Source: Eledone cirrhosa (lineage: Eukaryota). From it: DNA of 64,000 nt. Position 1 is the stretch's first letter; each line of letters begins with the position of its first letter. Below are positions 3,307 through 49,203 of this stretch, piece after piece. The stretch is taken from NCBI GenBank assembly GCA_964016885.1, contig OZ024741.1:207638001-207702000 (forward strand), written 5' to 3'. Both the position numbers and the translations under genes were made by a program. Below the pieces are notes generated by a model. That model searched no databases, had not been told where the DNA came from, and saw only the letters and a program-made list of their open reading frames with translations.

Positions 3307-3348
3307 CCTTTACCGGTTTCGCAGTTCTTCTGCTTTTCAAAAGTAGGA
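3307..3348 (-). ncRNA. Minimal type I hammerhead ribozyme motif, U3-A8 core
   Basis: Minus strand reads ctt-TTGAAAA-GCAG-aagaa-CTGC-GAAACCGGTA-aag: perfect 4-bp stem II, palindromic stem III, GUA site, short stem I. Confidence 0.65.
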
Positions 3349-3743
3349 TTGAGATGGAGGGTCTGTGGTTATTCTCACATCTGGTTGGTCTTTGAATGTT
3401 ACTTCTGTTTTATATGTAAATAAATGGCTCGAAATGCCAGGTTTTTAGAGAAGTAATTTGGTTGGTTGGTGAATAAGTAAAATAAGTTTCGCGCCAGTTC
3501 GCGAAACAGAGGGGGGGGGGGGCTTGGATTGTTTTTTCATATATTAGTGAAGTTTGGTTGGTTGATGCAGTCACGTGAATAAGCACATCAGGTTTCGCGC
3601 CAGTTTGTGTTTGAATTTCTTTTTACTTTAAAAAAAGTGGCTCACGAAGGCTTTTTTTATAAATGTAATTTGATTGGTTATAAATGAAATTATAACTGTC
3701 ACGTGAACAAATACATTAAATTTATATATATATATATATATTC

Positions 3744-3848
3744 AGGCGCGGGATGGGAATGACTTTGCTTAAGAAAATCGTTTCTCAACCATGTGGTTTT
3801 AGGTTCAGTCGTTCAGTCCCACTGTGTAGCACCTTGGGCAAATGTCTG
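3744..3848 (+). mobile_element. Degenerate tRNA-derived SINE head (CORE-like)
   Basis: B-box-like ggttcagtc followed by caccttgggcaaatgtc, which resembles the CORE-type motif. Confidence 0.45.
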
Positions 3849-3849
3849 A

Positions 3850-4225
3850 TGACTGAAAGTGAGTACAACAGCTTGTGGGAAATCTCTAACATTAACTGAA
3901 CAATCACTACTCAGAGAAGTTCTGAAGGCAGACTTTATAACAGAAAATCAAAGTAAGAAAGCATTCAATAAAGCCTTTAGAGAGAAACAAGAACAGGCAT
4001 AGATAGAAAAGGCACTTCATGGCAAATTTCCATTAAAGACATTGCTGATCCTTGATCGTGGTTTCGGCTTAGGCAAGGTTGGCTTAAAAAGAGCACCGAG
4101 GCTTTTATTACTGCTGCACAAGACCAGGCTTTCAGAACTAATTGGGTAAAAGCTAACATGAATAGACAAAATTGCTCCCCACCTTGCAGAGTGTGCCATA
4201 AAGCAAATGAATCTCAAGATTCTCA
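3850..4225 (+). mobile_element. R4/Dong-type RLE LINE fragment
   Basis: Translates to KALHGKF...LKKSTEAFITAAQDQAFRTNW...CRVCHKANES (Zn-knuckle region), frameshifted. Confidence 0.7.
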
Positions 4226-5052
4226 AACACTCCTTCCAACGAGTCTGTCAGTAGCAAACATCTCTAAGCTGGATCCCAAAGCGTCACCAGCCAAGCTCAT
4301 GGATGTTATCCAACTATCTTTCTCAGGGTCTACCTCTTGGTCTCCTGTCGGGTGGTTTTGCCTGTAAAATGTGTCCAGCGATTCTTTACTGAGACATTCT
4401 AACCACATGCTCATAATATCGGAGTTGTGATCTCTCAACTCGGAGAAGTAGCGGCTCTACCAGGAGTGACTCTCTGGTCTCTGAGCTATGCACTTTATCG
4501 AGTAACATTACTCCAAAGACCCTTCGGAGGAATCCCATTTCTGCCCCTTTTATTTGCAATTGCATTCTTTTGGTCATTATTCAAGATTCATGATCCTCGG
4601 TAAGAGTTGGCAGGAATACCAGGAAGACAGCGAGTTTGGCTTTTACACCTACCCCCCTTCTTCTGATTGCTGAATGCCGAGGCTGTCGCATTACTGCATC
4701 AGCTTTTGCAATTCTAGCACATAATTCAACCTCCTGCCTTCCATCACTCATGAACACGGCTCCAAGGTATTTGAATTTCTCTAACTGCTTCAGTGGAACT
4801 CCATTCACATGTATATACATTTGAGGGACTTCTGTCCACTCGTCCATCACGCAATGTGTGTGTGTGTTTGTGTGAATGTATGCGTGTGTAAAAGGAAGGA
4901 AAGGGATACACACATATATATGTCTAACATAAAAACAGTGACACACACGCGTGTCTGTAATTTAAGAACGCCGACAAACTCATGCGCACGCACATACACA
5001 CACCGTCCTATTACCACTTAAGAGCTTTGGCCCGGGCAAACATCCCCTCAAA
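4226..5052 (-). mobile_element. RTE-clade LINE 3' fragment plus shared upstream flank
   Basis: LEKFKYLGAVFMSDG and AEMGFLRRVFGV.LLDKVH.SETRE motifs; inverted near-copy of 8325-9125. Confidence 0.8.
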
Positions 5053-5417
5053 TTTGGAACCATCTTGGTCAAGAGGCTGGCAGGAGCCTTACCTGGGACA
5101 TCACAGTTAGTGACTCTTTTGCTTCCTCCCACATCCTGGATGCAGCGGTAAAGGCGAGAGCTACAGCATCCGCAGCTGAACGGAACAAAATCCTAAAATA
5201 CCGTGTTCTGTCAGCTAACTATATTATCCAGCCTGTGGCGTTCCAGACGTTAGGGGAAGTCGGGCTACTGACAGCGAGATTCTTATCTTCACTGGCGGCT
5301 CGCCAAATAGAGGTAACTGGTGATGCTCGTGAGGGCACTTGGTTGTTCCAGCACCTCAGCGTCGCCATCACCCCAGGTAACGCTGCGAGCGTGCTGGCCT
5401 GCCTCAAAAATTATTAG
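5053..5417 (+). mobile_element. CRE-like RLE LINE 3' fragment (endonuclease end)
   Basis: Translates to WDITVSDSFA...AAERNKILKY...PVAFQTLGEVG...LFQHLSVAI..GNA. Confidence 0.7.
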
Positions 5418-47380: not shown

Positions 47381-47975
47381 AAATTAAACAAAGTTCAACA
47401 CTCACGGTGAATTTCACTAAAATGGGATATCGTAGCTAGGGCCGAACCGTTCAATGGACGAAGGAAATCTCGTGATCTCTGTGTTACGGAAGCATATTAC
47501 ATAACTCTATCAAGACCTCTACCAATTAACGATAGAACGGAGGTAACCATTAGCTGTCAACATCGAAGGGCTAATTCCTTCGCCAATAGAGTTTTTGACC
47601 CAACTTAGTCATGTAGCCCCATCTCTAATTGTAGCTAATAAGTTAAATTGCTATGAACAACTCGATAAGTATAAGTTACCTCCCCTACATTGTCTCTCAA
47701 TTAAATAATTTAAATACTAGCACATAACTATAAAATACACACAATCTCTAATCTCTCGAGAAGTTACTTCTCCTGAAACCACCCTCTAATTAGTAAGGTA
47801 AATATGCCCATTGGCAGCCATCTTGTTACCCATAGGCAGATCTCACACAATGCAGCCTCGGCAGTTGAGTACTGCTTGATTATGGCTGACAGCTGATGAA
47901 ACAAAGGCACCATAGTACAAACTAATATATGGAACATTATATTATGTAACATTAGTTTAATTTATATTCCTTTGA

Positions 47976-48096
47976 GTTCCGATGAGCCACTCTGTTTTTT
48001 TAAATATGTTAATTATTTTCAACTGAACCAGATCAATTTTGATACATAGTCATCTGATCCAGAAATATTATACGGAGTAGCGAAACAATTGTAAAC
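47976..48096 (+). ncRNA. Hammerhead motif with U4C core and about 78-nt loop II insertion
   Basis: gtt-CCGATGA-GCCACTCTG...CGGAGTAGC-GAAACAATTGTA-aac. Confidence 0.6.
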
Positions 48097-48319
48097 GGGC
48101 ATTATTATTATTAATATTATTATTATTGTTATTCTTTACATTCCTTACATCAAAATAAATATGTTGACAATCTTTTAATAATGTCTTCCTTGTGAAATTT
48201 GTGGTCTTGTTTTGCTTAACTAATGAATATATATATATATATATATATATATATATATATATATATATATATATATATATATATATATATATATATATAT
48301 ATATATATATATATATATA

Positions 48320-48985
48320 TTAGAATTGGAGCTCTGAAATAGCAATATATATATATGGATGTATATATAATGTATTTTGCAATACACTTTATGCTTAATT
48401 AAAGGCATTTTGAAGACCGTAAGCTATTGTTTTAATGTAGTGACAAATTCACTCACTTTGATCTCAGCAAACAGGGGAGATAAGCCGACATTACATGTTT
48501 CGCTTTTGTTGAAGCTTATCAAAGCCAACTACCCCGCCTGTCTACTGAGATCAATGATGTTATATTCTTATAGAAATCTAGTAAATAATCAGGAGCTGAT
48601 TATGCAGAGCGGTTGTTGGTCAGGCAGAAATTAAAAATTAGAATTGGAGCTCTGAAATAGCAATATATATATGGATGTATATATAATGTATTTTGCAATA
48701 CACTTTATGCTTAATTAAAAGCATTTTGAAGACCGTAAGCTATTGTTTTAAAGTAGTGACAAATTCACTCACTTTGATCTCAGCAAACAGGGGAGATAAG
48801 CCGACACGACATGTTTCGCTTTTGTTGAAGCTTATCAAGGCCAACTACCCCGCCTGTCTACTGAGATCAATGATGTTATATTCTTATAGAAATCTAGTAA
48901 ATAATCAGGAGCTGATTATGCAGAGCGGTTGTTGGTCAGGCAGAAATTAAAAATTAGAATTGGAGCTCTGAAATAGCAATATATA
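48320..48985 (-). repeat. About two satellite/retrozyme monomers (316 bp) inverted relative to the main array
   Basis: Reverse complement of the main array; period 316 (48377 to 48693). Confidence 0.95.
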
Positions 48986-49110
48986 CATCCATATATATAT
49001 TGCTATTTCAGAGCTCCAATTCTAATTTTTAATTTCTGCCTGACCAACAACCGCTCTGCATAATCAGCTCCTGGTTATTTTCTAGATTTCTATAAGAATA
49101 TAACACCATT

Positions 49111-49203
49111 GATCTCAGTAGACAGGCGGGGTAGTTGGCCTTGATAAGCTTCAACAAAAGCGAAACATGTCATGTCGGCTTATCTCCCCTGTTTGCTGAG
49201 ATC
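49111..49203 (+). ncRNA. Type I hammerhead ribozyme, U3-A8 core (first plus-strand copy; repeated per monomer); predicted cleavage after C49176
   Basis: Stem I ggcc/ggct, extended by tagacagg/cctgtttg and gatctcag/ctgagatc. Core 49141-49147. Stem II GCTT/AAGC. GAAA at 49162-49165. Stem III ACAT/ATGT. GUC triplet. Confidence 0.88.

What the first reader, a model, noticed from the sequence alone, without database searches (positions are those of the whole stretch)
3307..49203. U3-A8 hammerheads recur in at least four apparently unrelated element families in one window
Seen: UUGANAA cores with correct downstream stems occur at 3307-3348 (-), 7871-8006 (-), 31646-31743 (+) and 32027-32125 (-) (a PLE pseudo-LTR family) and in the satellite. 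The flanks show no evident similarity. Established: U3-A8 is known but generally treated as a minority natural variant. Inference: in this AT-rich genome it may be a major HHR class, so standard surveys could substantially undercount its ribozymes.
Basis: partly seen in the sequence, partly recalled or inferred. Interest (0 to 1): 0.75.

Follow-up and report, generated by a model that had tools for sequence, protein, structure and literature searches.

The report
Variant-core hammerheads in Penelope retrotransposons
Four different repeat families in this window carry hammerhead-ribozyme motifs with a U-A pair where most have C-G; this known variant makes up roughly a tenth of such motifs in the genome, has switched state several times between element lineages, and likely still cuts the elements' RNA.

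Summary
All named sites are type I hammerhead motifs with a U3-A8 core, each from a different multi-copy family: a Neptune-like Penelope element (3340-), two Hydra-clade Penelope elements (8001-; 31650+/32118-) and a 304/316-bp tandem retrozyme-like satellite (49 of 49 units U3-A8). But that pattern favours U3-A8 families. A complementary pattern gives C3-G8 109,203 against U3-A8 at background, and a 1.18-Mb sample gives 14 U3-A8 of 168 (8%, interval 4-13%). So U3-A8 is a large minority (about 30,000 copies), not a major class, and four ordinary C3-G8 motifs lie in the same window. The idea is also in print: about 1,300 U3-A8 motifs missed by the standard descriptor in Schistosoma Penelope elements (PMC4209133). 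What is added: an endonuclease tree rejects one U3-A8 clade (at least 3 switches), one U3-A8 family has a C3-G8 sister with alignable hammerhead, and the satellite family shows helix covariation around an invariant U3-A8 pair. Cleavage and expression are untested.

The parts
3307..3348 (-). Family A type I hammerhead motif, U3-A8 core (U3 3340, predicted cut after 3311), minimal palindromic helix III
   Evidence: dominant family among first 100 listed matches
3217..3723 (-). 5'-truncated 3' end of a Neptune-like Penelope element that carries motif A; in longer copies the GIY-YIG domain ends about 1.05 kb upstream
7868..8009 (-). Family C hammerhead motif, U3-A8 core (U3 8001, predicted cut after 7876), long helix II opening with C.A; 3' end of a Hydra-clade element, next to (TA)n; sister to a C3-G8 family
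31646..31743 (+). Family B hammerhead motif, U3-A8 core (U3 31650, predicted cut after 31737), degenerate helix III in this copy
32027..32125 (-). Family B hammerhead motif, U3-A8 core (U3 32118, predicted cut after 32033), 727 nt downstream of the element's endonuclease fragment
32845..33290 (-). Frameshifted GIY-YIG endonuclease fragment of the family B Hydra-clade element, centre of an inverted insertion (32013-34258)
34140..34245 (+). Mirror copy of the family B motif with a broken core (position 9 not A)
48319..64000 (+). Family S: tandem array of 304/316-bp units, each with a U3-A8 type I hammerhead (first + core 49141, predicted cut after 49176); two inverted units at 48319-48979; array continues to about 38 kb beyond the window end, (TA)n at both ends
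20667..20793 (+). Canonical C3-G8 hammerhead motif 483 nt behind a Hydra endonuclease fragment (comparison)
21121..21181 (-). Canonical C3-G8 hammerhead motif of the genome's largest class (comparison)
26893..26937 (-). C3-G8 hammerhead motif with U.U at the foot of helix II (comparison)
45810..45864 (-). Canonical C3-G8 hammerhead motif 1,171 nt behind a Hydra endonuclease fragment (comparison)

Best explanation
These are type I hammerhead motifs with a U3-A8 instead of a C3-G8 core pair, carried at the 3' ends of several Penelope-like retrotransposon families and in a tandem retrozyme-like satellite, where they likely cut the element's RNA out of longer transcripts, probably as dimers. Shown: motif anatomy, family membership, position in sense downstream of the endonuclease (A, B, C and a further family D), genome-wide counts, share of about 8%, and that U3-A8 families do not form one endonuclease clade. 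Inferred: that the 3-8 pair was exchanged several times by two transitions through a mismatched or wobble state; that master elements need the ribozyme; that short palindromic helix III forces cleavage in tandem copies; that satellite units are released as about 304-316-nt RNAs, circularise and are copied by Penelope enzymes. Most genomic copies are truncated, dead insertions, so copy number reflects the success of a few master elements and not selection on each copy.
For: Core counts under one pattern: U3-A8 24,443, C3-G8 13,466, C3-A8 377, U3-G8 294, purine-3/pyrimidine-8 385, with reversed controls 506, 73, 145, 224, 1,321. Family S alignment of 15 copies: 98.5% of cells paired, 7 of 18 pairs with two-sided change in helices I, II and III, U3-A8 in 15 of 15; slid controls 36-52% paired. 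Family C aligns along its whole hammerhead with a C3-G8 family, with compensating changes in helix I; their endonucleases are sisters at 99/97 and end 1,569 nt upstream of the core in one locus of each. Endonuclease link: A in 14 loci at 1,013-1,316 nt, B in 7 of 7 fetched insertions, D in 2 loci at 300 and 378 nt. AU test rejects one clade for five U3-A8 rows (p 0.0001) and for the four Hydra rows (p 0.0005); 4 changes, at least 3 forced by well-supported branches. Satellite unit folds as a circle at -75 kcal/mol, z -4.9. U3-A8 is described as natural and active in vitro (PMC3088659, section 8) and as a Penelope variant (PMC4209133).
Against: No cleavage assay and no RNA evidence. The hammerhead fold is not the predicted minimum-energy fold for A (+2.4 against -8.0 kcal/mol), the 31650 copy (-11.2 against -22.4) or the satellite (-10.9 against -13.3). 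In family B, 12 of the first 100 listed copies have a mismatched C3.A8 core, so the pair is not strictly kept there. Metazoan Penelope hammerheads cleaved poorly in vitro in PMC4209133. The tree rests on about 140 endonuclease columns, 14 labelled rows, and links by proximity; it cannot give the direction of change. The covariation rows are related sequences that I picked from search lists, and the structure was drawn from them.
Confidence: 0.8

Rival explanations
1. U3-A8 is a major or dominant hammerhead class in this genome, so surveys miss a large part of its ribozymes for this reason.
For: One pattern with G10.1-C11.1, C15.2-G16.2 and short helices gives 24,443 U3-A8 against 13,466 C3-G8; the window itself holds 4 dispersed U3-A8 motifs and a 49-unit array against 4 C3-G8 motifs. 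Large tandem arrays are sampled unevenly by 10-kb stretches.
Against: Complementary pattern: C3-G8 109,203 (control 268) against U3-A8 2,066 (control 1,733). Sample of 118 stretches: 154 against 14 at score >=22, 134 against 12 at >=24; locus bootstrap 4-13%; present in 57 against 11 of 118 stretches; 19 against 6 clusters under the stricter descriptor.
Confidence: 0.07
2. The U3-A8 motifs are decayed or merely structural relics: AT-biased mutation fixed both transitions in master elements that no longer need cleavage.
For: C3.A8 cores in 12 of 100 family B copies, in both arms of 3 of the 4 inverted pairs fetched; weak helix I and unstable monomer fold in A; some Penelope clades spread without canonical hammerheads (PMC8557442 passages).
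Against: All other core positions and three helices are kept, with two-sided changes, across family S subfamilies; position 7 varies freely in B while the rest of the core does not; both positions changed together in each of families A, B, C, D, E and S, and no family examined had a mismatched majority.
Confidence: 0.1
3. U3-A8 arose once and was spread among elements by exchange of 3' ends, or it is ancestral and C3-G8 families reverted.
For: The tree cannot tell gain from loss; a second Neptune-like element also shows a U3-A8-like core with the same helix III as A (L147), so the state can be inherited within a subclade.
Against: The hammerheads and flanks of A, B, C and S share no detectable similarity, whereas C is clearly homologous to a C3-G8 family; so at least the C/C' switch happened in place.
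Confidence: 0.12

Closest known systems
U3-A8 minimal hammerheads of Schistosoma mansoni Cercyon Penelope-like elements (Cervera and de la Pena 2014, PMC4209133; parts 1-2 of 4 read)
   Same: Same core covariation, same host element class and place (pseudo-LTR), missed by the standard descriptor, opposite-strand pairs 100-700 bp apart, palindromic helix III region.
   Different: There about 1,300 against about 2,000; here about 30,000 copies but about 8%. Here spread over Neptune-like and at least three Hydra lineages and a satellite, with short helix III present and helix II up to about 105 nt.
Natural U3-A8 core variants (Perreault et al. 2011, PMC3088659; section 8 and passages read)
   Same: U3-A8 covariation; U.U at 10.1-11.1 and U4C also noted as tolerated.
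   Different: Described as rare variants in 'several' examples, not as repeat families with thousands of copies.
Non-LTR retrozymes (Cervera and de la Pena 2020, PMC7229834, passages; Li et al. bioRxiv 10.64898/2026.07.22.740005, part 1 of 5 and passages)
   Same: Tandem 150-450-bp low-GC units with one type I hammerhead each, self-paired circular fold, co-occurring with Penelope elements.
   Different: The family S core is U3-A8; no passage I read describes a U3-A8 retrozyme. Expression as circular RNA and a parent element were not shown here.
Hydra and Neptune clades of Penelope-like elements (Craig et al. 2021, PMC8557442; section 11 and passages read)
   Same: Hydra marks (RW motif, DKT, CxCX5C linker, (TA)n targets) in family B; CX4CxxC linker, GxKF, DKG and C-terminal GIY-YIG in family A.
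   Different: That paper reports canonical hammerheads in Hydra; its supplementary file of motifs was not read and may hold U3-A8 cases.

Membership tests
Type I hammerhead ribozyme | Core N3-U4-G5-A6-N7-N8-A9, G12-A13-A14, A15.1-U16.1, H17 in type I order | tested here: met
   3340, 8001, 31650, 32118 and 49 satellite units; not met in the 34153 copy
Type I hammerhead ribozyme | Watson-Crick pair between positions 3 and 8 | tested here: met
   U-A at all named sites; mismatched cores near background genome-wide, but 12 of 100 in family B
Type I hammerhead ribozyme | Three helices around the core, supported by covariation | tested here: met
   Family S: 7 of 18 pairs with two-sided change; C against its sister. 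A, B not counted for covariation
Type I hammerhead ribozyme | Purine-pyrimidine pair at 10.1-11.1 | tested here: inconclusive
   G-C in A, B and S; C.A mismatch throughout family C and its C3-G8 sister
Type I hammerhead ribozyme | Rfam hammerhead model at gathering score | tested here: not met
   0 matches in the window, canonical motifs included; satellite units reach 28-32 bits of 52 with HH9
Type I hammerhead ribozyme | Loop 1-loop 2 tertiary contact | not tested
   An internal loop in helix I is visible in family S; contacts were not modelled
Type I hammerhead ribozyme | Self-cleavage after position 17 | not testable with these tools
   No assay; no RNA run listed
Penelope-like element | RT followed by GIY-YIG endonuclease, hammerhead in the 3' repeat in sense | tested here: met
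   A: Pfam GIY-YIG 1e-6 and weak RVT_1, link in 14 loci; B 7 of 7; C and D by tblastn. Pfam found nothing in 3 Hydra proteins and 1 N-terminal Neptune-like piece
Penelope-like element | 5'-truncated and inverted insertions next to (TA)n | tested here: met
Hydra clade | RWK-like motif, DKT, CxCX5C linker | tested here: met
   All three in B copy L273; linker in C (L242) and D (L236); RW and DKT not seen in the truncated C and D copies
Neptune clade | Placement with reference Neptune proteins | not tested
   No reference sequences in my trees; label rests on motifs in L243/L244 and recall; Nematis not formally excluded
Non-LTR retrozyme | Tandem 150-450-bp low-GC units each with a type I hammerhead | tested here: met
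   304/316 bp, 36% GC, 49 of 49 units
Non-LTR retrozyme | Expressed as linear and circular monomer RNA | not testable with these tools
   No RNA run listed

The most novel reading that the evidence does not exclude
This genome is a natural experiment on the hammerhead core: Penelope lineages have swapped the 3-8 pair between C-G and U-A at least three times, one switch is caught between sister families with otherwise homologous ribozymes, and one family has kept transposing with a C3.A8 mismatch, the expected intermediate. With U4C families and helix-II junction variants, well over half of roughly 350,000-400,000 hammerhead motifs would escape a strict descriptor.
Probability: 0.5. Interest if true: 0.55.

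Novelty: new member of a known kind. Interest (0 to 1): 0.35.

Why it matters
The variant and its under-detection are known, so the headline claim is not new and is overstated. The useful part is evolutionary: matched natural ribozymes that differ in the core pair (family C and its C3-G8 sister; family B copies with U3-A8 or C3.A8) allow a direct test of how a catalytic-core base pair is exchanged through mismatched steps, and of whether Penelope elements need cleavage at all. In practice, descriptors for such genomes should allow Y3-R8, U4C, a mismatch or extra base at the foot of helix II, and long helix II.

Tried and rejected
Rfam was of little use: microsatellite-driven microRNA hits filled the E-value list (150 of 242 shown) and nothing reached gathering. 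The first genome-wide pattern suggested U3-A8 dominance; rejected as pattern bias. My strict scanner (78 against 10) missed families with a junction mismatch and was widened; thresholds were chosen after seeing data, and family A scores 22 and drops out at 24. The U3-A8-like hit at 9889(+) was rejected (inverted-repeat family). Expression: no RNA holder listed; laying four contig runs on a satellite unit showed no listed difference in the core, but three runs had 0-3 contigs at low depth and I draw nothing from them. No parent element was found for S or for family E. The L241 endonuclease lies downstream of its hammerhead and groups with the C3-G8 sister, so it was dropped from the tests, with two short unlabelled rows (33 rows, 30); the L147 row was left unlabelled. 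The family B row was partly out of frame and was replaced, same result. C3.A8 copies of family B do not form one clade (7 changes among 28 rows), so a single mismatched master element is not shown. Earlier-findings look-ups returned nothing. Przybilski and Hammann 2007 was seen only as a title in a reference list. The host taxon was not determined; an octopod guess from recall steered two paper searches only.
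Full report
Setting. The window is G000:C2:207638001-207702000 of a 2.996-Gb assembly; 118 sampled stretches average 36% GC. It is rich in (TA)n and in fragments of Penelope-like elements (PLEs). The host taxon was not determined.

Observation. Each site named in the finding is a type I hammerhead motif with U at 3 and A at 8. Family A (U3 3340, minus) has a 4-bp helix II and a minimal palindromic helix III. Family C (U3 8001, minus) has a strong helix I, a helix II region of about 105 nt that opens with a C.A mismatch, and folds at z -3.9. 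Family B (31650 plus, 32118 minus, broken mirror copy 34153 plus) has longer helices with defects in these copies. Family S is a 304/316-bp array in which 49 of 49 units in the window keep U3-A8; it runs on to about 38 kb beyond the window and is bounded by (TA)n. Outside the array my scanner gave 4 U3-A8 hits at score >=21, of which one is false (9889) and which omit 32118; 100 block shuffles gave at most 2. The four families share no blastn similarity, 0 of 6 pairs. The same scan shows four C3-G8 motifs in the window.

How common is U3-A8? With one pattern (G10.1-C11.1, C15.2-G16.2, short helices) the genome holds U3-A8 24,443 (reversed control 506), C3-G8 13,466 (73), C3-A8 377 (145), U3-G8 294 (224), and purine-3/pyrimidine-8 385 (1,321); some matches are counted twice at overlapping ends. 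The pattern is, however, tailored to families A and S. A second pattern for U15.2-A16.2 helices gives C3-G8 109,203 (268) and U3-A8 2,066 (1,733); the two patterns together put U3-A8 at about 17%. For a less biased figure I scanned 118 ten-kb stretches taken at round coordinates over the large contigs. A strict descriptor gave 78 C3-G8 and 10 U3-A8 at score >=24, in 19 and 6 clusters at >=22. A broader one gave 154 and 14 at >=22, 134 and 12 at >=24, 122 and 9 at >=26; every other core had at most 3 at >=24, and reversed sequence gave 1 and 2. The share is 8.3% (Wilson 5.0-13.5%, locus bootstrap 4.1-13.4%), about 30,000-35,000 against 340,000-390,000 copies by extrapolation. Of 134 C3-G8 motifs, 53 have a mismatch and 14 an extra base at the foot of helix II, and U4C cores add 8 against 0 reversed. 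So U3-A8 is real and numerous but a minority, and it is not the main reason for an undercount. Rfam at gathering score finds no motif of either kind in the window.

What carries them. [quoted passage not shown] I call it Neptune-like from motifs and recall. Family B lies behind a Hydra-type endonuclease in the window and in 7 of 7 fetched insertions, one with the RW, DKT and CxCX5C marks given for Hydra in PMC8557442 section 11. Family C and a further U3-A8 family D also lie behind Hydra endonucleases. No parent was found for S or for another U3-A8 family, E. S fits the description of non-LTR retrozymes in PMC7229834 (passages): its 304-nt unit folds as a circle at -75 kcal/mol, z -4.9.

One origin or several? 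Family C aligns over its whole hammerhead with a C3-G8 family, sharing the odd C.A junction and helix III, with compensating changes in helix I; their endonucleases are sisters (99/97). On a tree of 30 endonuclease domains, 14 of them labelled, the core state needs 4 changes, at least 3 forced by well-supported branches; one U3-A8 clade is rejected for all five rows (p 0.0001) and for the four Hydra rows (p 0.0005). Direction is not resolved, the alignment is short and links are by proximity.

Is the fold under selection? In 15 family S copies from different subfamilies, 98.5% of cells pair, 7 of 18 pairs change on both sides and U3-A8 is invariant; sliding partners gives 36-52%. The rows are related and hand-picked, so this supports but does not prove selection. 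Against: in family B (4,978 matches) 12 of the first 100 listed have C3.A8 and none C3-G8; these copies do not form one clade, though both arms carry the mismatch in 3 of 4 inverted pairs. Monomer hammerhead folds lie above the minimum-energy fold, by 10 kcal/mol in A and 2.4 in S, which fits a need for dimers or weak activity.

Mechanism. Most likely each master element's ribozyme cuts after position 17 near the 3' end of the RNA, releasing element RNA from read-through or tandem transcripts; short palindromic helix III regions would pair between two copies, as proposed for metazoan PLEs in PMC4209133. U-A would replace C-G by two transitions. These steps are inferred; neither cleavage nor transcription was observed.

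What is known. PMC4209133 (parts 1-2 of 4 read) reports the U3-A8 variant in Schistosoma PLEs as not considered in the descriptor, about 1,300 hits beside about 2,000. PMC3088659 (section 8) reports natural U3-A8 and cites activity in vitro. Searches for 'hammerhead' with 'U3-A8' gave 1 paper, with 'U3A8' 0, with 'C3U' and 'G8A' 1, with 'octopus' 8, seen as a listing only, and with 'YUGA' and 'descriptor' 0. I found no report of repeated switching across PLE clades or of a U3-A8 retrozyme, but subscription papers and supplements were not seen.

Verdict. Observation confirmed, interpretation partly supported, new members of a known kind. Interest 0.35; the repeated switch with a natural sister pair is the part worth a bench test.

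Noticed in passing
window 47976-48096 (+) and core at 15337 (-): Hammerhead motifs with a U4C core (C3-C4-G5-A6-N7-G8-A9) and intact helices; 8 such motifs in the 1.18-Mb sample against 0 in reversed sequence, from several families, about as frequent as U3-A8. The 47979 type lies behind a Hydra endonuclease in L007.
   Followed up: partly
G000 family B copies, e.g. L247-L256: 12 of the first 100 listed family B copies have a C3.A8 mismatched core next to a C run; both arms share it in 3 of 4 inverted pairs; not one clade.
   Followed up: partly
1.18-Mb sample (L007-L044, L095-L174): Half of the C3-G8 motifs have a mismatch (U.U, C.A, A.G, A.A, A.C) or an extra base at the foot of helix II, and many have a helix II of 50-120 nt; total motif density extrapolates to about 350,000-400,000 per genome.
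   Followed up: partly
window 34658-37397 (inverted) and 438-2639 (-): Hydra-type element whose 3' end shows only a partial, odd core (position 9 not A, no clear GAAA in sense); no hammerhead was found by my scanner.
   Followed up: no
window 37698-39909: 1,010-nt perfect inverted repeat carrying the 3' part of another Penelope-like ORF (CX4CxxC linker, GIY-YIG); a very young insertion.
   Followed up: no
window 48319-49000: The satellite begins with two inverted units around a palindromic centre near 48979, directly after (TA)n, like an inverted Penelope insertion that later expanded as an array of about 54 kb with higher-order 304/316 pattern.
   Followed up: partly
L060 604 and 1195 (+); L013 3568 (+): Family E: another U3-A8 family with long helix II, seen as a tandem pair 591 nt apart; parent not found.
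   Followed up: partly
L147 about 8900-8940 (+): A second Neptune-like element ends in a U3-A8-like core with the same helix III as family A but weak helix I.
   Followed up: partly
window 29914-30387 (+); 10843-11946 (-): A DDE_3 (Tc1/mariner-type) transposase fragment (Pfam 1.4e-10) and the 3' part of a non-LTR retrotransposon ORF.
   Followed up: no
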